Made by a program: the position numbers and the translations under genes. A model generated the notes under the pieces. That model had not been told where the DNA came from. It searched no databases and was given only the letters and a program-made list of their open reading frames with translations. Source: a phage. Taken from it: a stretch of DNA of 51,269 nucleotides. This document shows positions 1-42,771 of the stretch, in pieces; positions within the stretch are counted from its first letter, which is position 1, and each line of letters begins with the position of its first letter. The DNA is taken from sequence record PZ445518.1; one strand, written 5' to 3'.

Positions 1-1569
1 ATGATCATATGGGAAGATTTGACGGCGGCGCAAAAGCGAGCCATTAAAGAAATCAGTGAGCATTCATTCGAAAAGATGATCAGAATCTGGTTTCAGTTAT
101 TGCAGGGGCAAAAATTCCAGAGCAACTGGCATTTTAGCTTATTGTGCAGTGAGGTAGAGAAGATCATCAATGGAGAGTCGCAGAATGTGATTTTCAACAT
201 TACGCCAGGTAGCGGTAAGACTGAGATTTTCTCGATCCACATGTCACCCTACGCGTCATTGAAAAGTCGGAAGGTGAGAAACCTTAACCTTTCGTTTAGT
301 GATGGACTTGTCCAGCAAAACAGCAACAGGATAAAGGAGATTATCGGTTCTCCTGAGTGGCAAGAGCTATGGCCAGGAAAACTGGCAAAGGCGAGCGCAA
401 AAGATCTCATAGTTACGGATGGCGGCAAGGTTAAATTGCAAGTTAACTCACGTTCTATTGGCGGACAGGTAACAGGTTTGCGTGGCGGCTATATGGACGA
501 TGGTTTTACTGGTATGCTGGTTCTGGACGATCCAGACAAGCCGGATGATATGCTTTCTAAGGTCAAGCGTGAGGCGATCCACATGCGGTTAAAAAACACA
601 GTGCGATCGCGTCGAATGAAAGACACTACGCCGATTGTTATGGTGCAACAGCGACTACACGTTAATGATTCCACCTGGTTCATGCTTAATGGCGGTATGG
701 GCGGTATTGAGTTTAAAGTTGTGAGCATTCCTGCGCTGGTTACGAAAGAATACCGCGAAACGCTTCCTGATTGGTTGAAGCCTGAATTTGATCGTGATGT
801 GTTGTCAAGTAAGCCAGTGATGATAGATGGCGTTGCTCATTATTCATTTTGGCCTGCGAAGGAAAGCGCGGAGGAATTGCTTGCATTGCGCAATGCAGAT
901 CCTTATACGTTCGCCAGTCAGTACCAACAGCAACCCATCGCGCTTGGCGGCAACGTGTTTAAAACAGAGTGGTTCCAGTATTACGGCAGCGGCGAAAAAT
1001 GCGCACTTCCTAAACCGGATCGCTTTGAATACACATTTATTACTGGTGATACCGCGCAGAAGGCCGGAGAGCTTAACGACTATTCAGTTTTTTGTTATTG
1101 GGGGATGTATAAGAATCGCGTTTACTTCATTGATGGCATTCGCGGAAAGTGGGAAGCGCCGGATCTTGAATTAAATTTTATTGCCTTCGTTAATCAGTGC
1201 TGGAAGCGCAATAAGGAGTGTGGCAGCTTGCGACGTATCCACATTGAGGATAAGGCCAGCGGCACGGGTTTGATTCAGGGGGCCAAAAAGAAGATCCCGA
1301 TTGATATAAATCCCGTTCAGCGAAGCAATGACAAGGTAACGCGAGCAATGGACGCCGCGCCAGTAATGAGGGCCGGACGTGTGGCACTGCCAGAAAGTCA
1401 TCCCATGTTACCTGAGATACTGGCAGAGGTTGCAGCGTTCACTTTTGACGATTCTCATCCCCATGATGATATTGTCGATAATATAGTTGATGCTGTTAAC
1501 GTCGAAATGAACTTGGCTGATGATCCGGTAGCAAGGATGAAAAAGCTGGCTGGTCTACGCAATAAATAG
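1..1569 (+). CDS. terL: terminase large subunit
   Basis: 522-aa ORF from base 1; P-loop-like GSGKTE near N-terminus; immediately upstream of portal; ATG at 1 overlaps inferred terS stop across window ends. Confidence 0.8.
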   Translation: MIIWEDLTAAQKRAIKEISEHSFEKMIRIWFQLLQGQKFQSNWHFSLLCSEVEKIINGESQNVIFNITPGSGKTEIFSIHMSPYASLKSRKVRNLNLSFSDGLVQQNSNRIKEIIGSPEWQELWPGKLAKASAKDLIVTDGGKVKLQVNSRSIGGQVTGLRGGYMDDGFTGMLVLDDPDKPDDMLSKVKREAIHMRLKNTVRSRRMKDTTPIVMVQQRLHVNDSTWFMLNGGMGGIEFKVVSIPALVTKEYRETLPDWLKPEFDRDVLSSKPVMIDGVAHYSFWPAKESAEELLALRNADPYTFASQYQQQPIALGGNVFKTEWFQYYGSGEKCALPKPDRFEYTFITGDTAQKAGELNDYSVFCYWGMYKNRVYFIDGIRGKWEAPDLELNFIAFVNQCWKRNKECGSLRRIHIEDKASGTGLIQGAKKKIPIDINPVQRSNDKVTRAMDAAPVMRAGRVALPESHPMLPEILAEVAAFTFDDSHPHDDIVDNIVDAVNVEMNLADDPVARMKKLAGLRNK

Positions 1570-1589
1570 CACTAATTGCTAAAAAGTTA
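1567..1589 (+). repeat. conserved 22-bp element, variant copy (no promoter geometry)
   Basis: AAATAGCACTAATTGCTAAAAAG after terL stop; followed by terminator, not by spaced -10. Confidence 0.5.
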
Positions 1590-6190: not shown

Positions 6191-6210
6191 GTTTAACAAA
6201 AAGTGCTATC
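6191..6210 (+). repeat. conserved 22-bp element, inverted copy in late region
   Basis: GTTTAACAAAAAGTGCTATC upstream of major capsid gene, opposite to gene direction. Confidence 0.5.
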
Positions 6211-9943: not shown

Positions 9944-9965
9944 CTTTTAACAAAAAGTGCTATAA
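9944..9965 (+). repeat. conserved 22-bp element, inverted copy in late region
   Basis: CTTTTAACAAAAAGTGCTATAA just upstream of chaperone RBS; on minus strand it is followed after 19 nt by TAGATT. Confidence 0.5.
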
Positions 9966-15897: not shown

Positions 15898-18800
15898 ATG
15901 GCTAAATATATGATAAGCGGCAGTAAGGGCGGAAGCAAAAAGCCATACGTGCCAAAAGAGATGGAAGATAACCTGATCTCGATAAACAAGATTAAAGTTT
16001 TGCTGGCTGTATCTGATGGCGAGTGCGATCCAGATTTCACGTTGCGCGATCTTTATCTTGATGATGTTCCGGTTATTGCCAGCGATGGCACTGTTAACTA
16101 CGAGGGAGTTACGGCTGAATATCGACCAGGTACGCAGACGCAAGATTACATCCAGGGTTTTACTGACACATCAAGTGAGGTGACAGTTGCAAGAGATATT
16201 ACCGGAGACAATCCTTATGTTATTTCTGTTACAAATAAAAATCTATCTGCGGTAAGAATAAAGATCCTGATGCCAGTAGGCATTAAAACAGAGGATAACG
16301 GCGATCTTGTTGGCGTAAGGGTTGAGTATGCCGTAGATATGGCTGTTGATGGCGGTTCTTATAGCGAGGTTATGAGAGATGTAATTGACGGCAAGACAAG
16401 ATCAGGATACGACCGCAGCAGAAGGATTGATCTTCCTAAGTTTGATGAGCGCGTTTTAATCCGAGTAAAGCGACTGACTCCAGACAGCACATCTTCAAAG
16501 GTGACTGATAAAATCAAGCTGCAAAGTTACGCTGAGGTTGTTGATGCAAAATTCCGCTATCCTCTGACTGGACTTGTATTCGTAGAATTTGACAGCGAAT
16601 TGTTTCCTACGCAAATCCCTAACATTTCTATAAAAAAGAAATGGAAGATTATTAATGTGCCAAGCAACTATGATCCAATATCAAGAGAATATCACGGGTC
16701 ATGGGATGGGACTTTTAAAAAAGCGTGGTCAAATAATCCTGCTTGGGTTCTTTATGATCTGGTGACAAATCAGCGTTATGGACTTGATCAGCGAGAGTTA
16801 GGAATACAGATCGACAAGTGGAGCTTATACGAAGCGGGCGTTTACTGCGATCAGAAAGTTCCAGACGGTAAAGGCGGCACTGAGCCTCGCTACCTATGCG
16901 ATGTGGTGATTCAGAATCAAGTTGAGGCTTATCAGCTAATCCGTGACATTTGCTCAATCTTTCGCGGAATGAGTTTTTGGAATGGTGAGAGCTTATCAAT
17001 CGTGATTGATAAGCCGCGCGATCCATCATACGTGTTTACTAATGAAAACGTCATCAACGGTGATTTTCAGTACACAAACGCAAGCGAAAAAAGCATGTAC
17101 ACGCAGTGTAACGTGACGTTTGACGACGAACAAAACATGTATCAGCAGGACGTAGAGGGGGTTTTTGATACTGAGGCTGCATTACGATTTGGATACAATC
17201 CAACAAGCATTACAGCGATCGGTTGTACACGCAGGAGCGAAGCGAATCGTCGCGGTCGGTGGGTTTTGAAAACAAACCTTAGAAGCACTACTGTAAACTT
17301 TGCTACCGGACTAGAGGGGATGATTCCATCAATAGGTGATGTGATTGCTATCGCTGATAATTTTCAGAGCAGCAACCTAACGTTAAACCTATCGGGCCGA
17401 GTGATGGAAGTTTCAGGATTGCAGGTTTTCGTTCCGTTTAAGGTTGATGCTCGTCCTGGTGATTTTATTATCATCAACAAGCCGGACGGAAAGCCAGTTA
17501 AGCGCACGATCTCAAAGGTTAGCGCAGACGGAAAAACCATTGAGTTAAATATTGGATTTGGTTTTGATGTTAAGCCTGATACTGTTTTTGCGATTGACCG
17601 TACTGACCTTGCGTTGCAGCAATACGTTGTGACAACTATCAGCAAGGGTGATGACGAAAACGAGTTTACCTATTCAATCACTGCTGTAGAGTACGATCCG
17701 AACAAATACGACGAGATTGATTATGGAGTAAACATTGATGACAGACCGACTTCAATTGTTCAGCCTGACGTGATGGCAGCGCCTGAGAACGTTAAGATCT
17801 CATCTTATTCTCGCGTCGTGCAGGGTGTTAGCGTTGAGACTATGGTTGTTTCATGGGATAAGGTTCCTTACGCATCGCTTTATGAAATGCAGTGGCGAAA
17901 AGGTGATGGTAACTGGCTGAATACGCCGCAGACCGCTAACAAAGAGATAGAGGTAGAAGGGATTTACTCTGGCAACTACCAAGTAAGGGTGAGATCCGTT
18001 TCTGCAAGCGGTAACGCTTCCCCGTGGTCAAAGATTGCAACCGCCACTCTGACAGGTAAAGTTGGAGAGCCAGGAGCGCCGATTAATCTTACGGCTTCTG
18101 ATAATGAAGTTTTTGGCATTCGTGTCAAATGGGGTATGCCGGAAGGATCAGGCGATACGGCTTACATTGAGCTTCACCAATCGCCAGACGGAACGGTTGA
18201 AAACTCAAGTCTGCTTACGCTGATTCCATATCCTCAATATGAGTATTGGCATAGCACGTTACCAGCGGGGCAAGTTGTATGGTATAGAATCCGCAGCGTT
18301 GACAGAATAGGCAACGTTTCAAGCTGGACTGACTTTGTTCGCGGCATGGCGTCAGATGACGTTGAATCTGTTTTGGGCGACATTCTGGACAAGATTTTTG
18401 ATACAGAAGCTGGTCAAGAAATCAAAGAGAACGCCATAGACAGTGCCAATAAAATCAAAGACCAGGCGCAATCAATCATACAGAACGCGTTGGCAAATGA
18501 TGCAGATGTGAAGTGGACGCGAGTGCAAAACGGAAAGCGCAAGGCTGAATATGGTCATGCTCTTGAGCTTATCGCCAATGAAACAGAAGCGCGCGTAACT
18601 CAAATCGAAGAATTAAGGGCATCAATTGATGGCGAGATAACATCAAGCATCAAGACAGTGCAGGAGGCAATTGCCACTGAATCAGAGACGCGAGCGACTC
18701 AAATTCAGCAGCTTGATTCTAAATTCACAAAAGAAATCGACGGCGTGCGCAAGGATACTTCTGCAAGCATTAGCGATGTAAGGCAGACAATCACTAACGA

Positions 18801-19476
18801 GTCAGAAGCGCGCGCTCAGGCCGTTCAGCAGCTTGACGCTAAGTTCACGAAAGAGATAAACGACCTTGACGGAGTTATCAAAACAGAAGTCGAGGCTAAC
18901 ATCTCAGAAGTGAAACAGGCGATCGCCAATGAGACAGAGGCAAGGGTTCAGGCTGACCAGGCATTAACAGCACGATTTGGCGACGTTGAATCTGCATTGG
19001 TTGAAAAGTTGGATTCTTGGGCGAGCGTTGATTCAGTTGGGGCTAAATACGCTATGAAACTTGGCCTTACTTACAAAGGCCAGCAATACAGCGCAGGAAT
19101 GGTGATGCAGCTTTCGCAGGGTTCATCCGGCCTTATCTCGCAAATTTTGTTTGATGCTAACAGGTTCGCCATTATGACTAGCTCTACTGGAGGGACTTTT
19201 ACTTTGCCTTTCGTGGTTGAGAATAATCAGGTTTTCATTAATAGTCTTTTGGTGAAGAACGGTTCAATCACTAATGCGATGATTGGTAATGTGATTCAGT
19301 CAAACAACTTTGTTCAAAACCAGCAAGGATGGAGGCTTGATAAAAACGGAATCTTTGAGAATTACGGATCAACGCCAGGAGAAGGAGCTACTAAATTCAC
19401 CAATGAGGGATTGAAGGTAAAAGATGCAAACGGAGTATTGAGGGTTGAAGTCGGAAGGATTACCGGAAGCTGGTAA
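15898..19476 (+). CDS. central tail fiber / host specificity protein (lambda J-like)
   Basis: About 1190 aa from ATG 15898; internal ETEAR...QL.AKF repeats near C-terminus; last gene of tail module before bidirectional terminator. Confidence 0.85.
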   Translation: MAKYMISGSKGGSKKPYVPKEMEDNLISINKIKVLLAVSDGECDPDFTLRDLYLDDVPVIASDGTVNYEGVTAEYRPGTQTQDYIQGFTDTSSEVTVARDITGDNPYVISVTNKNLSAVRIKILMPVGIKTEDNGDLVGVRVEYAVDMAVDGGSYSEVMRDVIDGKTRSGYDRSRRIDLPKFDERVLIRVKRLTPDSTSSKVTDKIKLQSYAEVVDAKFRYPLTGLVFVEFDSELFPTQIPNISIKKKWKIINVPSNYDPISREYHGSWDGTFKKAWSNNPAWVLYDLVTNQRYGLDQRELGIQIDKWSLYEAGVYCDQKVPDGKGGTEPRYLCDVVIQNQVEAYQLIRDICSIFRGMSFWNGESLSIVIDKPRDPSYVFTNENVINGDFQYTNASEKSMYTQCNVTFDDEQNMYQQDVEGVFDTEAALRFGYNPTSITAIGCTRRSEANRRGRWVLKTNLRSTTVNFATGLEGMIPSIGDVIAIADNFQSSNLTLNLSGRVMEVSGLQVFVPFKVDARPGDFIIINKPDGKPVKRTISKVSADGKTIELNIGFGFDVKPDTVFAIDRTDLALQQYVVTTISKGDDENEFTYSITAVEYDPNKYDEIDYGVNIDDRPTSIVQPDVMAAPENVKISSYSRVVQGVSVETMVVSWDKVPYASLYEMQWRKGDGNWLNTPQTANKEIEVEGIYSGNYQVRVRSVSASGNASPWSKIATATLTGKVGEPGAPINLTASDNEVFGIRVKWGMPEGSGDTAYIELHQSPDGTVENSSLLTLIPYPQYEYWHSTLPAGQVVWYRIRSVDRIGNVSSWTDFVRGMASDDVESVLGDILDKIFDTEAGQEIKENAIDSANKIKDQAQSIIQNALANDADVKWTRVQNGKRKAEYGHALELIANETEARVTQIEELRASIDGEITSSIKTVQEAIATESETRATQIQQLDSKFTKEIDGVRKDTSASISDVRQTITNESEARAQAVQQLDAKFTKEINDLDGVIKTEVEANISEVKQAIANETEARVQADQALTARFGDVESALVEKLDSWASVDSVGAKYAMKLGLTYKGQQYSAGMVMQLSQGSSGLISQILFDANRFAIMTSSTGGTFTLPFVVENNQVFINSLLVKNGSITNAMIGNVIQSNNFVQNQQGWRLDKNGIFENYGSTPGEGATKFTNEGLKVKDANGVLRVEVGRITGSW

Positions 19477-19504
19477 AAAAGGGGGCATAGCCCCCTTTAA
19501 TTTT
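19475..19504. terminator. bidirectional terminator between convergent J-like gene and Cor-like cassette
   Basis: A-tract, GGGGGC ata GCCCCC, T-tract. Confidence 0.7.
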
Positions 19505-20117
19505 AATCATAGTGTGATGCATTTATAACCAAAACAGATGAAGCGGTGTAAATACCAACAGGTCCAGGAGTTTGTGCAACCTGCCTAGAAAAAGAGTAGA
19601 TCCCGTTACCATACGCGGCAGCTTGAGACTCAAAAATCATGAATCCACCTAAAGCCGGATTAGGAACAGAGTTTAATGCTGTCAGTGATGGCATTATGGC
19701 GCAAGGATAGCCCATGTTAACATCAAATGCGATCCCGCTTACGCCTACTTGCTTTGCATCTAGCGGCCTCATTTTTCCATGATAAACCATTTCACCATGA
19801 GCATTATAAAACGCTATGCCGTGACTACCTGGGGGAGTCACCATATTACTAAAAGCATAAACAATAACCTCACCCTGATTATCAGATCTATCAAGTCTTA
19901 TTGCGTGCCTTCCACCATTGTTAAATTGCGTGAATGATATGTATGATTTAGCGGTCAATCTAACAAAGAAAAAACATACCCTATCAACAGGAATTGACGA
20001 AGTAAAAACGGTTCCGGTATTAGCAGATATTACGGCCCGATCAATTAGATTAACTGGAGTGAAATCTGGACTTAACCATAACGATCCGTCTGATTTTTTT
20101 ATACTCATCCCGTACAT
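19503..20117 (-). CDS. hypothetical protein (third gene of Cor-like cassette)
   Basis: ATG 2 nt after upstream stop; ends at bidirectional terminator. Confidence 0.45.
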   Translation of the reverse strand: MYGMSIKKSDGSLWLSPDFTPVNLIDRAVISANTGTVFTSSIPVDRVCFFFVRLTAKSYISFTQFNNGGRHAIRLDRSDNQGEVIVYAFSNMVTPPGSHGIAFYNAHGEMVYHGKMRPLDAKQVGVSGIAFDVNMGYPCAIMPSLTALNSVPNPALGGFMIFESQAAAYGNGIYSFSRQVAQTPGPVGIYTASSVLVINASHYD

Positions 20118-20119
20118 TA

Positions 20120-20398
20120 TCACCCCCAAAAAGTATATATATATCTTGAATCAGATCCAGAAAGCCCACTCCATGTAACGGTGTCGCCACTTACCCCTAA
20201 GTTTGGTGCGCCAGGGTCGCCACCACGCCAGGAATTCATGCCAACATATATTGCTTTCAATGATTTACCTGGCGGCCTGTTTTGGTAAGTCTTGCTACCT
20301 GATGGCTGAGTGAATTTATCAAGGAAGAAAACAGGCGTTAAAAGACCTGTAACTTCCCTTCCTCGATCGTCATATATTGCATAACCATATTGCGCCAT
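20120..20398 (-). CDS. hypothetical protein
   Basis: 92-aa ORF translationally coupled to the lipoprotein gene. Confidence 0.45.
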   Translation of the reverse strand: MAQYGYAIYDDRGREVTGLLTPVFFLDKFTQPSGSKTYQNRPPGKSLKAIYVGMNSWRGGDPGAPNLGVSGDTVTWSGLSGSDSRYIYTFWG

Positions 20399-20673
20399 TA
20401 ATTACACCTCAAATCAATAAATTTACTTTCATTTTGCCAACGGTTGATAAATTTAACTTCTTTATTGTCAACGCTCAACCTGTATTGCTTTTGGCTGAAT
20501 CTGTTTTCTCGGACTGCATTAATTTTGACTTCATGTAATCCGTTAACAGGGAATGTTTTAACGTTAAATTTTGCCGTGCAATCGATCTCCTTGAAGTTGC
20601 CAGTAGGCGACGCTGCGCATCCTGTCAGAGCGGCTACAGTGGCGATAACTGCGATTAACTTTTTCATCTTCAA
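20398..20673 (-). CDS. outer-membrane lipoprotein, Cor-like superinfection-exclusion candidate
   Basis: Signal peptide plus lipobox LTGC (MKMKKLIAVIATVAALTGC); small size; next to tail genes as for cor in T1/phi80-type phages. Confidence 0.6.
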   Translation of the reverse strand: MKMKKLIAVIATVAALTGCAASPTGNFKEIDCTAKFNVKTFPVNGLHEVKINAVRENRFSQKQYRLSVDNKEVKFINRWQNESKFIDLRCN

Positions 20674-20698
20674 TACTCCTTAGTTGTTGTTGGCTGCA

Positions 20699-20744
20699 AC
20701 TATACACGATCTTGGGCATCGCGTTTAGCAAAAAGTGCTATTTG
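20699..20744 (-). promoter_or_regulatory. conserved-element promoter cassette (-10 TATAGT) for Cor-like operon
   Basis: Reverse complement of GTTTAGCAAAAAGTGCTATTTG, about 20 nt spacer, TATAGT, leader CAACAACAACTAAGGAG. Confidence 0.5.
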
Positions 20745-21110
20745 TTATTTTTTGTTTTCCGGTGTTATCGAATTTAAGACGGCGTAAATTTAGCGCAAAA
20801 TTTAGACAACATAAGATCAATAAACAATCAATAAAATAGATATATACATATAAAATCAATAGTTTATTTATTTATGTATGTATATTTGTTTTTTCTTGTT
20901 ATCTGCGTTTCTTGTGGTTTTGGTTGTTTGTGGTGATTTTTCTTTCTGAGTATCTGTATGTGCCATCATTCATGTGTATGTATATAATCCGGCGTATCTG
21001 AGAGAACAGGGGAACAAGAAAAATAACACACATTAATCATTAACTTATGAGTCAAATCTGTTTTCTTGCCATCTGAGAACGTTTAGAAAACAGAAAAAAC
21101 AAAACAGCTA
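20745..21110. promoter_or_regulatory. AT-rich divergent control region A
   Basis: About 365 bp without ORFs; TATTTATTTATGTATGTATAT and GTATCTGTATGTG word repeats; GGGAACAAGAAAAA..ACACATTAA box shared with region B. Confidence 0.5.
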
Positions 21111-21138
21111 TTGACTAAATCAACCAAATGGCTACAAT
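21111..21138 (+). promoter_or_regulatory. sigma70-type promoter for recombination module
   Basis: TTGACT, 16-nt spacer, TACAAT; about 30 nt upstream of exonuclease ATG. Confidence 0.6.
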
Positions 21139-21168
21139 GCACGCATAAAGCAACAAGGAGCATTAAAG

Positions 21169-22224
21169 ATGAGTGATTTTAACGCCTACACTAGCGAAGA
21201 AATGAGCAACGAGCTTTATCATGATCCTAACGCGTGGACGGCTGAATATGTCAGCGGTTCCAGCCTAGCGGAGATTTACAGCACTTGCCCGGCGTACTGG
21301 AAGTACAAGCCGCGCCAGGAAACTAAAGCACTTGTTTTCGGTACGCAGTCGCATACCAACTTTGAAAGCAAGGAGCTATTCGAAAAAACATATCGCCGCG
21401 CACCGTCGCAGGATGATTTTAAAGACCTGATCACTAGTCAAACGGCGTTAGCATCAAAGCTGAAATCTTTTGGCCTGAAAGGTACGACGGGTAAACAATA
21501 CCCTGAATTACTGGAAATGCTGTACAAGTGCGGCGAGGATCTCAATGTGTGGTGGCTTATCGAAATGATGGCAGAATGCCAGGCCGCAGCGGACGGAGTG
21601 CAGTTAATAGACGCTAAAGATTATGATGCCTGTGTAGCGATGCGGCGCGTACTTGAGGCCATACCGGAGCATAACGCTTGCATGAACAGCCCAACCGCGC
21701 AGCGTGAAATGTCAATATTTGGGATCATCAACGGCGTAAAAGTAAAAGTGCGTCTTGATCACGTTGACGTAAACAAGGATGTAAAGGCAACAATCATTAA
21801 CGGTTACGACGAAAAAGGCAGGCCGATTTATGAAGAAGTCACCTATCCAGAAGCGGTGATTATCACTGACTACAAAACAACGGTTAGCGCAAATCCGGTT
21901 GACTTCCAGCGCCTGGCTTACAATCACGGCTATTATCTTAAAATGGCTTTGCAACATGACTTATTCAAAAAGGCTTATCCAGACGAGGAAAGGCCAGTAA
22001 TTGTAAGATTGCTTGCGCAGGAGAAGAAAGAGCCTTACTTGCCGCTTGCTTTCCGCATGAATATTGAGCAATTGAAGATCGGGCGCATCCAGTACATGAG
22101 CGTGATCAACAAGTTCAACGTTTGCCAGCAGTTAGACGAATGGCCTTCGTATGCAAACGGGCAACCGGAAATTGATCTTGATACTCCTGATTGGGTTCGT
22201 GCTCAATTCAGGCATTATCTTTGA
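21169..22224 (+). CDS. PD-(D/E)XK family recombination exonuclease
   Basis: 351 aa; D...D/E-x-K arrangement (VRLDHVDV ... IITDYKTT); first gene of recombination module. Confidence 0.65.
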   Translation: MSDFNAYTSEEMSNELYHDPNAWTAEYVSGSSLAEIYSTCPAYWKYKPRQETKALVFGTQSHTNFESKELFEKTYRRAPSQDDFKDLITSQTALASKLKSFGLKGTTGKQYPELLEMLYKCGEDLNVWWLIEMMAECQAAADGVQLIDAKDYDACVAMRRVLEAIPEHNACMNSPTAQREMSIFGIINGVKVKVRLDHVDVNKDVKATIINGYDEKGRPIYEEVTYPEAVIITDYKTTVSANPVDFQRLAYNHGYYLKMALQHDLFKKAYPDEERPVIVRLLAQEKKEPYLPLAFRMNIEQLKIGRIQYMSVINKFNVCQQLDEWPSYANGQPEIDLDTPDWVRAQFRHYL

Positions 22225-26678: not shown

Positions 26679-26700
26679 AAATAGCACTTTTTGCTAATGA
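26679..26700 (+). repeat. conserved 22-bp element, copy opposite to flanking genes
   Basis: AAATAGCACTTTTTGCTAATGA between primase terminator and tail fiber start. Confidence 0.5.
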
Positions 26701-35020: not shown

Positions 35021-35066
35021 AATATACCCGACACAATGTCGGGAGTTTTAACAAAAAATGCTATTC
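35021..35066 (-). promoter_or_regulatory. conserved-element promoter cassette (-10 TATATT)
   Basis: Minus strand: GAATAGCATTTTTTGTTAAAAC, hairpin CCCGAC..GTCGGG, TATATT, leader CATCGAAACGAAC. Confidence 0.5.
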
Positions 35067-37182: not shown

Positions 37183-37230
37183 ATTTTAACGGCCCAATAC
37201 TACCCCGTTTTGTCAAAAAGTGCTATTTGA
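37183..37230 (-). promoter_or_regulatory. conserved-element promoter cassette (-10 TAAAAT)
   Basis: Minus strand: AAATAGCACTTTTTGACAAAA, 19 nt, TAAAAT inside hairpin GGGCCGT..ACGGCCC. Confidence 0.45.
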
Positions 37231-38174: not shown

Positions 38175-38220
38175 ATTATGCCAGGTTTTTACACCTGGCT
38201 TTTAACAAAAAGTGCTATTT
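38175..38220 (-). promoter_or_regulatory. conserved-element promoter cassette (-10 CATAAT)
   Basis: Minus strand: AAATAGCACTTTTTGTTAAAA, 19 nt hairpin GCCAGGT..ACCTGGC, CATAAT, leader CACCGAAACGAAAGGAG. Confidence 0.55.
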
Positions 38221-40091: not shown

Positions 40092-40139
40092 ACTATACCA
40101 ATCAGCAGCGCATCGTTTTTAACAAAAAGTGCTATTTAG
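40092..40139 (-). promoter_or_regulatory. conserved-element promoter cassette (-10 TATAGT in hairpin loop)
   Basis: Minus strand: AAATAGCACTTTTTGTTAAAAA, then 8-bp stem GATGCGCT..AGCGCATC enclosing TATAGT. Confidence 0.5.
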
Positions 40140-41396: not shown

Positions 41397-41444
41397 AATG
41401 TACCCGATCAGGCGGCCTGAGTTTTAACAAAAAGTGCTATTTGA
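41397..41444 (-). promoter_or_regulatory. conserved-element promoter cassette (-10 TACATT) for leftward early operon
   Basis: Minus strand: AAATAGCACTTTTTGTTAAAAC, 19 nt, TACATT, leader CATCGAAACGAAC. Confidence 0.5.
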
Positions 41445-41979
41445 CGGTTAGCACCAGGATTGTGATCGAAATAATCAAAAGTAATCATTCGTAATCAAAT
41501 CACGTCAAAATGATGATTGCATTTGCAAATTTGATGAGAAAAGTAATCACGTTTAATCATTGGTTGCAGGGGAGATAGTGAAACCTTCCCCTCTTGCCTC
41601 ACTTTCCCGCCTGGCTGTCAGTGGTTGTTATGTTCCGTTCCCGCCTGTTCTTTTGTTGACCTTCCGCAAAATACGATAACAAAAAATAACAAACAATACC
41701 TATATAATACATTGAAAAATAAGGATTATTTATTTATATGTATCTATATATTATCTTTTGTTATCTTGGTTATTGTGGTATTTGGTGGGGGTATATAGTT
41801 TTTGTGTATCTATATGTGTGTATGGGTATGTAGGGGCATATATATCTATATGGCACTTTCCGCGAGAAAACTTCGATAACAGCCAATGATAACATTGATT
41901 TATAAGGAAAAATAACGCCAATATTGTTATTGTGCCACCATATAAAATTGATAAAACACGCGGGAACAAGAAAAAACAG
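41445..41979. promoter_or_regulatory. AT-rich divergent control region B (candidate operator/origin region)
   Basis: About 535 bp without ORFs; GTAATCA x3, palindrome ATTTGCAAAT, TTCCCGCCTG x2, TATGT/GTATCTATAT word repeats, GGGAACAAGAAAAA box. Confidence 0.5.
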
Positions 41980-42037: not shown

Positions 42038-42502
42038 ATGAGCGAGCAATCATTAACTGACACGCTGCGCCGTGCAGCTATTATGCTGGCTAATGGCGAG
42101 GAAGAGGCGATCAAGATTCCTGACGCGTATTTGCAGGTCCACATGTTCGGCAAGAAGTCGGCAAGCAATCCGGCGGCCTACATTCGCCAGATCATGAGTC
42201 GAGTTCCAGAAGTCGCCGAGCGGGGGCGCGTATCCGTTACCCGTGGAGTTTACGGGCCGGAAGATGAAAACTTCGGTAGCACTTTCTACGAGGTGCGCAT
42301 TGTTGAAGGACGTCGCAAGGTTTACAACAAAGAGGCACTGGAAAGGGCAGTACGCCAGGCTAAGCGCAAGGTTGCAGAGGCGATCATTGATATGTCACCA
42401 AACCTAGCAAACTATGCGCCGGAAGAGTATGAAACATTATCAAAGGCCGTCGCTGACTTTCACGCGATGATCAAAAAAACTTTCCTGGAGGATGAGCAAT
42501 GA
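42038..42502 (+). CDS. hypothetical protein (first rightward early gene)
   Basis: AGGAGG RBS; downstream of TTGACA-N17-GATAAT promoter. Confidence 0.5.
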   Translation: MSEQSLTDTLRRAAIMLANGEEEAIKIPDAYLQVHMFGKKSASNPAAYIRQIMSRVPEVAERGRVSVTRGVYGPEDENFGSTFYEVRIVEGRRKVYNKEALERAVRQAKRKVAEAIIDMSPNLANYAPEEYETLSKAVADFHAMIKKTFLEDEQ

Positions 42503-42771
42503 AAAAGGCGTTAATCGGTGTTTTGGTGGCAATGGCATTCCTGACCGGATGTAAAGAAGATGGCGCGCATGTTGGCAATGTGCAGATGGCTAACCCTGGC
42601 GATGACTACAACGTAAGGGAGCTATTCACCGCTGACGGATGCACTGTTTACCGATTCTATGACGATCGCACTGTTTACTTCACCAACTGCAAGGGAACTA
42701 CTAGCTGGGAAGTGTCGAAAAGCAATGGCAAAGGCACGAAGACAGAACATATGACCGTCGAGACAAAATAG
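42499..42771 (+). CDS. lipoprotein (second putative exclusion-type lipoprotein)
   Basis: Signal peptide with lipobox LTGC (MKKALIGVLVAMAFLTGC); stop TAG inside conserved element. Confidence 0.6.
   Translation: MKKALIGVLVAMAFLTGCKEDGAHVGNVQMANPGDDYNVRELFTADGCTVYRFYDDRTVYFTNCKGTTSWEVSKSNGKGTKTEHMTVETK

What the first reader, a model, noticed from the sequence alone, without database searches (positions are those of the whole stretch)
19503..20673. Early-promoter-driven lipoprotein cassette (Cor-like) convergent on the tail module, plus a second lipoprotein gene at 42499..42771
A 91-aa lipoprotein (lipobox LTGC) heads a translationally coupled 3-gene operon on the minus strand, driven by a conserved-element cassette and ending at the bidirectional terminator shared with the J-like gene. 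Small outer-membrane lipoproteins at this position in T1/phi80-type phages (Cor) block the receptor to exclude superinfecting phages. The functions of the two co-transcribed ORFs (92 and about 205 aa) are unknown. A second, unrelated lipoprotein (90 aa, lipobox LTGC) is encoded in the rightward early operon.
Basis: partly seen in the sequence, partly recalled or inferred. Interest (0 to 1): 0.45.

Follow-up and report, generated by a model that had tools for sequence, protein, structure and literature searches.

The report
BtuB receptor-binding and exclusion cassette
The three minus-strand genes next to the tail-tip gene are this T1-like phage's known host-recognition module for the vitamin B12 transporter BtuB (a likely exclusion lipoprotein, a small accessory protein and the receptor-binding protein), so the finding is real but ordinary and already published.

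Summary
Between the J-like tail-tip gene and exonuclease VIII, three overlapping or adjacent minus-strand genes encode a lipoprotein (89 aa from ATG 20667, lipobox LTGC), a 92-aa protein and a 204-aa protein. A family-wide promoter-type element lies upstream and a two-way hairpin terminator downstream.

The window is 100% identical here to Shigella phage JK16 (Warwickvirus, Drexlerviridae). This locus is the published receptor-binding-protein locus of small siphophages. A 2026 preprint's RB-TnSeq screens show JK16 depends on BtuB, not FhuA.

The lipoprotein sits where Cor, Llp and Rtp45 exclusion lipoproteins sit. It shares promoter, leader and signal peptide with the cor gene of a FhuA-type phage of the same genus. 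It fails the curated Cor model (19.3 vs 31 bits), and its mature domain is at most distantly Cor-like. Exclusion at BtuB is inferred, not shown, and "early" timing cannot be tested here. The second lipoprotein (DUF4884) is real and unrelated.

The parts
20724..20741 (-). Conserved 18-mer ATAGCACTTTTTGCTAAA, a promoter-associated element of T1-like phages (1 mismatch to the consensus)
   Evidence: There are 17 copies in the window and 13 in T1. The same element lies upstream of the lipoprotein or cor gene in Bas04, Bas06 and Bas05.
20699..20704 (-). TATAGT, a -10-like hexamer 19 nt after the 18-mer
   Evidence: Read from the sequence. Identical in Bas04, Bas05 and Bas06. Function is inferred; the generic scan did not call it.
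20676..20681 (-). Shine-Dalgarno AAGGAG, 8 nt before ATG 20667
20398..20667 (-). Outer-membrane lipoprotein precursor, 89 aa (lipobox LTGC, Cys17, +2 Ala, conserved Cys30 and Cys88). Putative BtuB-directed superinfection-exclusion factor.
   Evidence: (family alignment).
20120..20398 (-). 92-aa soluble accessory protein of the tail tip (PHROG 557; reported as Ig-like in related phages). Its start overlaps the lipoprotein stop.
   Evidence: PHROG 557 at E 4e-20. T1 gp32, 933W p64 and Ec_L1 gp79 fall in the same PHROG. No TM segment. Literature.
19503..20117 (-). 204-aa receptor-binding protein, BtuB type (PHROG 425, 'hand-like' all-beta fold)
19478..19498 (.). Two-way intrinsic terminator hairpin shared by the J-like gene and the cassette
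15898..19476 (+). J-like central tail fibre gene. Its last ~23 residues co-vary with the cassette allele within the genus.
42499..42771 (+). Second, unrelated lipoprotein (90 aa, lipobox LTGC, DUF4884). Not part of the receptor module.

Best explanation
The segment from the J stop codon to the lipobox of the lipoprotein gene (about 19478-20614) is the exchangeable terminal-receptor module of a Warwickvirus (Shigella phage JK16 type). It is specific for the TonB-dependent vitamin B12 transporter BtuB.

The 204-aa protein is the receptor-binding protein. It is a soluble all-beta protein. By analogy with related phages it caps the trimeric C-terminal tip of the J-like fibre as a separate, non-covalently attached subunit and binds the extracellular face of BtuB, triggering irreversible adsorption.

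The 92-aa protein is the small partner that always accompanies this RBP family. It is most likely a structural adaptor at the J tip; its role is inferred.

The lipoprotein is processed at Cys17 and sorted by Lol to the inner leaflet of the outer membrane (Ala at +2). It most likely binds the periplasmic side of BtuB and makes it unusable for the RBP. That would block superinfection and stop progeny being wasted on cell debris, as Llp and Cor do at FhuA and Rtp45 does at LptD.

All three genes are transcribed leftward as one unit from the cor-type promoter in the 495-bp AT-rich divergent intergenic region, and transcription stops at the shared hairpin.

Shown here or in the cited papers: the gene structure, the homologies, the RBP fold match, and BtuB dependence of JK16, Bas04 and Bas06. 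Inferred: attachment to J, direct BtuB binding, the exclusion function and the timing.
For: - Identity: 100% to JK16 over 19300-21200.
- Receptor: JK16 RB-TnSeq top hit is btuB (fitness 14.1), with sdaC and dcrB next. Table S1 gives receptor BtuB and RBP = CDS_0022; Table S5 gives AF3 ipTM 0.81. In the colinear MartyMcPhage record, CDS0022 is the 204-aa orthologue.
- Bas04 and Bas06 are BtuB-dependent and have the same three-gene layout. Their proteins are 97.8/98.9/98.5% (Bas04) and 55.7/71.9/64.2% (Bas06) identical to the window's.
- Natural swap: Bas05 has a J protein 95.9% identical but uses FhuA, and it carries a T1-type allele instead. DNA homology to Bas05 stops at 19478 and resumes at 20614.
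- Family: the 204-aa and 92-aa proteins share PHROGs 425 and 557 with T1 gp31/gp32, 933W p65/p64 and Ec_L1 gp80/gp79. In those phages the pair lies directly downstream of, and co-directional with, the tail-tip or fibre gene. hhalign of the family against T1 gp31 gives E 8.5e-6.
- Neither protein has a TM segment or signal peptide.
- The Oekolampad LptD locus has the same layout, exclusion lipoprotein then RBP on the strand opposite to J. Rtp45 there is an experimentally shown exclusion factor.
- Published models place the PHROG 425-type protein as a monomer on the J trimer and against the receptor.
Against: - No experiment shows that this lipoprotein excludes phages or binds BtuB.
- RBP-BtuB contact rests on AlphaFold3 models from a preprint, not on a structure.
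- Virion presence of the two proteins has not been shown for this phage. There is only a tentative SDS-PAGE band in a distant relative.
- Stx podophages carry a pair 44-51% identical but are reported to use BamA, so family membership alone does not fix the receptor.
- An RBP transcribed with an exclusion factor rather than with the tail operon is unusual compared with T1 and Bas05. Timing is unknown.
Confidence: 0.78

Rival explanations
1. One reading: a Cor-type lipoprotein that blocks FhuA, as in T1 and phi80, heading an operon whose two other products are unrelated proteins of unknown function.
For: PHROG 1119 'Cor' hit at E 8.5e-8. Cor is the best NCBIfam hit and aligns full length. The position relative to J and exonuclease VIII matches T1 cor. 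Promoter, leader and signal peptide are shared with a genuine cor in Bas05.
Against: The Cor hit depends on the signal peptide. The score of 19.3 bits is below the 31-bit cut-off. JK16, Bas04 and Bas06 use BtuB, and fhuA is not among their screen hits. The FhuA-using congener Bas05 carries a different mature lipoprotein. The two other ORFs are members of the RBP pair families.
Confidence: 0.05
2. All three products act together in the infected cell's envelope as an extended exclusion cassette. [quoted passage not shown]
For: The database names of PHROG 557 and 425. Co-transcription with the lipoprotein in this phage. The suggestion in PMC13164509.
Confidence: 0.05
3. The RBP assignment is right, but the lipoprotein does something other than receptor blocking. 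Possibilities are a factor needed for RBP or tail-tip maturation, an envelope-modifying protein, or protection against BtuB-dependent colicins only.
For: No functional data. The mature domain lacks a significant match to any characterised exclusion protein. The structure search was indecisive. The phage carries a second conserved lipoprotein of unknown role.
Against: Every characterised small-siphophage or T5-type receptor locus pairs its RBP with a small lipoprotein that blocks the same receptor: Llp-FhuA, Cor-FhuA, Rtp45-LptD. The lipoprotein co-varies with the RBP allele, not with the phage backbone. There is weak but non-random Cor-like similarity.
Confidence: 0.12

Closest known systems
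BtuB-type 'bona fide RBP locus' of Drexlerviridae (Bas04 FritzSarasin, Bas06 KarlJaspers, JK16; Maffei 2021 PMC8594841; preprint 10.64898/2026.04.02.716166)
   Same: Same three genes in the same order and orientation between gpJ and exonuclease VIII. The proteins are 98-99% (Bas04) and 56-72% (Bas06) identical, and JK16 is identical in the DNA compared. BtuB dependence has been determined experimentally.
   Different: Nothing substantive: this window is an instance of it. The exclusion role of the lipoprotein and the role of the 92-aa protein are untested in those papers too.
T1 / N15 / HK022 / phi80 / Bas05 FhuA cassette (gp32, gp31, Cor)
   Same: Same position after J. Same two protein families (PHROG 557 and 425) plus a small outer-membrane lipoprotein. 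In Bas05 the lipoprotein has the same promoter element, leader and signal peptide. The RBPs share N-terminal (YG...G) and C-terminal (...YD) motifs.
   Different: The receptor is FhuA. The pair is co-directional with J and cor stands alone on the other strand, whereas here all three genes form one minus-strand unit. RBP identity is only 23-26%. The mature lipoprotein is 72 vs 58 residues and fails the Cor model cut-off.
Rtp44/Rtp45 and Oekolampad RBP/SE (LptD locus; cryo-EM 9rpt; 10.1101/2025.07.07.663478)
   Different: No detectable sequence similarity (hhalign E 0.29 for the RBPs; signal peptide only for the lipoproteins). No small Ig-like gene. The receptor is LptD.
T5 pb5 / Llp (FhuA) and T5-like BtuB phages
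   Different: pb5-type RBPs are a different, much larger family. There is no sequence similarity, and the Llp match is not discriminating.
Stx podophages 933W / phi24B / VT2-Sakai: the 'outer membrane protein' + 'membrane associated protein' pair after the tail fibre gene
   Same: The pair is 44-51% identical to the window's 204-aa and 92-aa proteins, closer than the FhuA-type pair is. The gene order (small, then large) is the same.
   Different: Podovirus tail; co-directional with the fibre gene; followed by lom; no lipoprotein homologue. The reported receptor is BamA.

Membership tests
Cor superinfection-exclusion lipoprotein (NCBIfam NF047972 / PHROG 1119) | Scores above the curated family cut-off | tested here: not met
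   19.3 bits against a cut-off of 31; T1 Cor scores 55.8. The PHROG 1119 hit at E 8.5e-8 disappears when residues 1-17 are removed.
Cor superinfection-exclusion lipoprotein (NCBIfam NF047972 / PHROG 1119) | Mature-domain homology to Cor | tested here: inconclusive
   hhalign of mature domain against mature domain: local score 18.1, P 0.0044, probability 7.8%. No shuffle out of 200 reached that score (mean 10.0, sd 2.1). The cysteine pattern and the C-terminal motif are shared.
Cor superinfection-exclusion lipoprotein (NCBIfam NF047972 / PHROG 1119) | Lipoprotein signal peptide with lipobox; small size | tested here: met
   MKKLIAVIATVAALTG|C. Lipobox, Cys17 and a 72-residue mature chain are conserved in 13 family members.
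Cor superinfection-exclusion lipoprotein (NCBIfam NF047972 / PHROG 1119) | Belongs to a FhuA-dependent phage and excludes FhuA-dependent phages | tested here: not met
   Association with FhuA is not met: JK16, Bas04 and Bas06 depend on BtuB. The exclusion phenotype itself is not testable with these tools.
Small-siphophage RBP locus, BtuB allele (Maffei 2021) | Located directly downstream of the gpJ homologue, with an allele matching phages of known receptor | tested here: met
   The locus lies 26 nt after the J stop. The proteins are 98-99% identical to Bas04 and the layout is identical in Bas04 and Bas06. JK16 itself was screened.
Small-siphophage RBP locus, BtuB allele (Maffei 2021) | Specificity maps to the locus rather than to J | tested here: met
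   Bas05 J is 95.9% identical but its receptor is FhuA. The homology break is confined to 19478-20614 plus the last ~23 J residues. This is comparative evidence only.
PHROG 425 'hand-like' tail-tip RBP | Profile match; about 200-230 aa, all-beta, no export signal; partnered with a PHROG 557 gene | tested here: met
   E 1.8e-49. The same PHROG holds T1 gp31, 933W p65 and Ec_L1 gp80. All-beta model. No TM segment. The PHROG 557 gene is adjacent.
PHROG 425 'hand-like' tail-tip RBP | Physical presence at the tail tip and direct receptor binding | not testable with these tools
   [not shown]
T5 Llp-type exclusion lipoprotein | Llp-like small beta fold with a disulfide | tested here: inconclusive
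   [not shown]
Rtp45-type exclusion lipoprotein (LptD) | Sequence similarity to the Oekolampad exclusion lipoprotein (the Rtp45 counterpart; Rtp45 itself was not compared) | tested here: not met
   Only the signal peptide aligns (18 columns).
DUF4884 (second lipoprotein, 42499..42771) | Pfam PF16225 above the gathering score | tested here: met
   31.9 bits against a cut-off of 30, E 1.1e-7.

The most novel reading that the evidence does not exclude
The RBPs of the FhuA, BtuB, BamA(?) and LptD alleles are not unrelated families. They would form one ancient structural superfamily that docks on J through a shared N-terminal YG...G hairpin and a C-terminal ...YD strand. The whole RBP-plus-exclusion-lipoprotein unit would move between phages by recombination anchored on two conserved flanks: the 3' end of J, and the promoter, leader and signal-peptide codons of the lipoprotein gene. 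On this reading the BtuB lipoprotein is a Cor whose mature domain was replaced or retargeted behind an unchanged export signal. The RBP has come under the cor promoter, so the receptor key and the receptor lock-out are made from one transcript.
Probability: 0.45. Interest if true: 0.4.

Novelty: already known. Interest (0 to 1): 0.18.

Why it matters
This locus decides which outer-membrane protein the phage uses, so it is the handle for predicting or re-engineering host range in T1-like phages. The paired lipoprotein would be a ready-made BtuB inhibitor, relevant to BtuB phages, E colicins and B12 uptake. Both points are already recognised in the literature for this very phage group.

This re-analysis adds only details:
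- the exact swap boundaries, running from the J stop to the lipobox codons;
- the shared cor promoter and signal peptide;
- a fold-level link between the BtuB-type RBP and the solved LptD-type RBP.

Tried and rejected
- Pfam gave nothing for the three cassette proteins beyond the generic lipoprotein signal.
- PDB sequence searches with the 204-aa protein and the lipoprotein found nothing, even at E 10.
- hhalign of the RBP family against the Oekolampad RBP was not significant (E 0.29), so that relationship is structural only.
- The generic sigma-70 scan found no minus-strand promoter upstream of the cassette. It flagged a weak terminator-like hairpin inside the 92-aa gene (20350-20331), which is within chance expectation (2 found, 2.0 expected), so I disregarded it.
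- I considered YncD as the receptor (IME347, Bas10). I dropped it once Bas04, Bas06 and JK16 were matched.
- I considered an o-spanin role for the lipoprotein. I rejected it because the lysis cassette, with its own spanin, lies at about 33.7-34.8 kb in the colinear annotation.
- A literature search for the 18-mer sequence returned nothing relevant. The Rtp genome paper is not held. I found no transcriptome of a T1-like phage to test 'early'.
- I did not use the metagenome or genome locus scans or the representative-protein search, because the phage collection and the papers already answered the question.

Full report
**What is there**

The minus strand between the J-like tail-tip gene (15898..19476, +) and exonuclease VIII (21169..22224, +) carries three tightly packed ORFs.
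- A lipoprotein precursor at 20398..20667. The mechanical ORF call starts at TTG 20673 (91 aa). AAGGAG at 20681..20676 is correctly spaced only for ATG 20667 (89 aa), and orthologues are annotated at 89 aa.
- A 92-aa ORF at 20120..20398, whose ATG overlaps the lipoprotein stop (TAATG).
- A 204-aa ORF from ATG 20117 to 19503, two bases after the 92-aa stop.

The signal peptide is MKKLIAVIATVAALTG|C, with Ala at +2. By the E. coli Lol sorting rule (established knowledge) this predicts an outer-membrane location. A 9-bp hairpin at 19478..19498 lies between the two convergent stop codons. It folds at about -15 kcal/mol on either strand.

Upstream, at 20741..20724 (-), is one copy of an 18-mer, ATAGCACTTTTTGTTAAA. 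It occurs 17 times in the window and 13 times in T1. Here it is followed 19 nt later by TATAGT.

**Which phage and which locus**

The region is 100% identical to Shigella phage JK16 and 99% or more identical to about 30 other Warwickvirus genomes (Drexlerviridae, Tempevirinae).

In this family, the segment directly downstream of gpJ is the published 'bona fide RBP locus'. Its alleles match the terminal receptor (FhuA, BtuB, LptD, YncD) and are thought to carry cognate exclusion proteins (Maffei 2021; 2026 preprint).

**Which receptor**

The window's three proteins compare with two BASEL phages as follows.

| Phage | Lipoprotein | 92-aa | 204-aa |
|---|---|---|---|
| Bas04 FritzSarasin | 97.8% | 98.9% | 98.5% |
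| Bas06 KarlJaspers | 55.7% | 71.9% | 64.2% |

Both phages have the same three-gene layout, and both are BtuB-dependent in Maffei's supplementary table.

The 2026 preprint screened JK16 itself by RB-TnSeq. btuB is the top gene (fitness 14.1), followed by sdaC and dcrB. Its Table S1 gives receptor BtuB and RBP 'CDS_0022'. Its Table S5 gives an AlphaFold3 BtuB-RBP ipTM of 0.81. In the colinear GenBank record of MartyMcPhage (CPL00224), CDS0022 is the orthologue of the 204-aa gene.

A natural control exists in the same genus. Bas05 PeterMerian has a J protein 95.9% identical to the window's but uses FhuA. It carries a T1-type allele: small protein and RBP co-directional with J, and cor on the other strand.

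At DNA level, homology to Bas05 runs to 19478 and resumes at 20614, inside the signal-peptide codons of the lipoprotein gene. Only the last ~23 residues of J differ markedly: 61% identity to Bas05 against 100% to Bas04.

**The two 'unknown' ORFs**

The 204-aa protein belongs to PHROG 425 and the 92-aa protein to PHROG 557. The same PHROGs hold T1 gp31/gp32, 933W p65/p64 and Enterobacter phage Ec_L1 gp80/gp79. In all of those phages the pair sits immediately after, and co-directional with, the tail-tip or tail-fibre gene.

Pairwise identity to the FhuA-type proteins is low: 23-26% for the large protein and 31-33% for the small one. The family profile still aligns to T1 gp31 over 150 columns at E 8.5e-6.

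Neither protein has a signal peptide or a hydrophobic segment. [quoted passage not shown]

A 2025 modelling paper describes the same two families as an Ig-like small protein (three copies) and a 'hand-like' monomer. In its models the monomer caps the J trimer and contacts the receptor, FhuA or BamA. It also reports a tentative virion band in a distant relative.

I conclude that the 204-aa protein is the RBP and the 92-aa protein its structural partner. The alternative, that they help Cor in the membrane, is poorly supported.

**The lipoprotein**

Its family (13 sequences, 53-95% identical) keeps the lipobox and two cysteines of the mature chain, Cys30 and Cys88.

Similarity to T1 or Bas05 Cor by BLAST or hhalign is confined to residues 1-35. 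Without the signal peptide there is no PHROG Cor hit. The curated NCBIfam Cor model gives 19.3 bits against a cut-off of 31, where T1 Cor scores 55.8. It is therefore not a Cor family member by the curated test.

Two observations still link it to cor.
- In Bas05 the genuine cor gene has the same 18-mer, TATAGT, leader, Shine-Dalgarno and signal-peptide codons.
- A profile of mature domains against 30 mature Cor sequences gives a local score of 18.1, which none of 200 column-shuffled profiles reaches (mean 10.0, sd 2.1). The two families share CT(A/G)x(Y/F) near the N-terminus and Fx3(W/Y)x5Fx4C at the C-terminus.

The Oekolampad LptD locus has the same layout: lipoprotein first, then RBP, convergent on J. 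The Rtp45 lipoprotein of the related phage Rtp is an experimentally proven exclusion factor acting from the periplasmic side. By position, by co-variation with the RBP allele and by analogy, the best reading is a BtuB-directed exclusion lipoprotein. This step is inference.

**Regulation**

The cassette is served by the cor-type promoter region in a 495-bp, 32% G+C divergent intergenic region.

The FhuA alleles in T1 and Bas05 differ from this arrangement. There the RBP pair follows J on the same strand, where it would be transcribed with J, and only cor reads leftward. Here the RBP pair has been placed behind the lipoprotein gene. Whether the promoter is early cannot be decided from sequence, and I found no transcriptome of a T1-like phage.

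**Second lipoprotein**

The ORF at 42499..42771 encodes MKKALIGVLVAMAFLTGC..., 90 aa. It overlaps the stop of a 154-aa ORF and matches DUF4884 above the gathering score. It is found in 119 phage records, including Bas06 and phages of Serratia, Pantoea and Xanthomonas. It is unrelated to the receptor module, and its function is unknown.

**Verdict**

This is a real, well-formed feature, but it is the known BtuB receptor module of JK16-type phages, not a FhuA/Cor cassette with mystery passengers. Novelty is low. The open points are the untested exclusion activity, the role of the 92-aa protein and the timing of expression.

Noticed in passing
window, 17 sites: 1566, 26681, 28243, 30732, 31803, 42768, 44562, 46012, 48647 (+ strand, first base); 6192-6209, 9946-9963, 20724-20741, 35047-35064, 37209-37226, 38201-38218, 40118-40135, 41423-41440 (- strand): The conserved 18-mer ATAGCACTTTTTGTTAAA is usually followed within 2-12 nt by a strong hairpin. 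The stem sequence differs from copy to copy (for example GGGCTT/AAGCCC, GCCAGG/CCTGGC, CCCGAC/GTCGGG), and the hairpin abuts or encloses a TATAAT-like hexamer. In 12 of 17 window copies and 8 of 13 T1 copies the fold has z < -1.5 against shuffles. The copy before the lipoprotein gene has only a weak hairpin. I could not find this motif in the searchable literature. Its role is open: a promoter with a structured spacer, a regulator site or an RNA element.
   Followed up: partly
window 6192-6209 (-), 9946-9963 (-), 26681-26698 (+), 1566-1583 (+): Three copies of the 18-mer (6192, 9946 and 26681) point against the surrounding genes. They lie inside the head/tail module, just upstream of the major head protein and tape-measure chaperone genes, and between the lateral fibre and primase genes. 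The copies at 1566 and 9946 run straight into a terminator-like hairpin, and 26681 into one about 25 nt further on. T1 has copies at the equivalent two places in its structural module (15069 and 18833, minus strand). They could be short antisense or orphan transcripts, or binding sites rather than promoters.
   Followed up: no
[not shown]
   Followed up: partly
L002 (phage 933W) 5768-6618, and about 200 Stx-phage records: Short-tailed Shiga-toxin phages (933W, phi24B, VT2-Sakai and others) carry, right after their tail fibre gene and before lom, a pair 44-51% identical to the window's BtuB-type pair. That is closer than the FhuA-type pair of T1 (23-33%). By the preprint's '>30% identity' rule they would be filed with the BtuB family, yet their reported receptor is BamA. 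They have no homologue of the lipoprotein.
   Followed up: partly
window 20864-20924 and 41726-41786: A 61-nt AT-rich direct repeat (70% identity) occurs in the two large divergent intergenic regions. One lies upstream of the exonuclease VIII operon and the other upstream of the operon that contains the second lipoprotein.
   Followed up: no
window 42499-42771: The DUF4884 lipoprotein is conserved in 119 phage records across Drexlerviridae and in Serratia, Pantoea and Xanthomonas phages. It ends at another copy of the 18-mer (42768). Its function is unknown, and it does not follow the receptor allele.
   Followed up: partly
host side (preprint supplement), relevant to window 19503-20117: JK16, Bas04, Bas06 and CPL00224 need the inner-membrane and periplasmic proteins SdaC and DcrB as well as BtuB (fitness about 9-13). 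DcrB is also a screen hit for the FhuA phage Bas05 and for CPL00221.
   Followed up: no
window 18571-18946: The J-like gene contains four copies of a ~25-nt repeat at 99-132-nt spacing, with a longer pair at 18704/18824. They encode a repeated ...TESE(A/T)RA..QQLD.KFTKEI... segment. This part of J is deleted or diverged in Bas04 (34% identity in alignment columns 901-1000).
   Followed up: no
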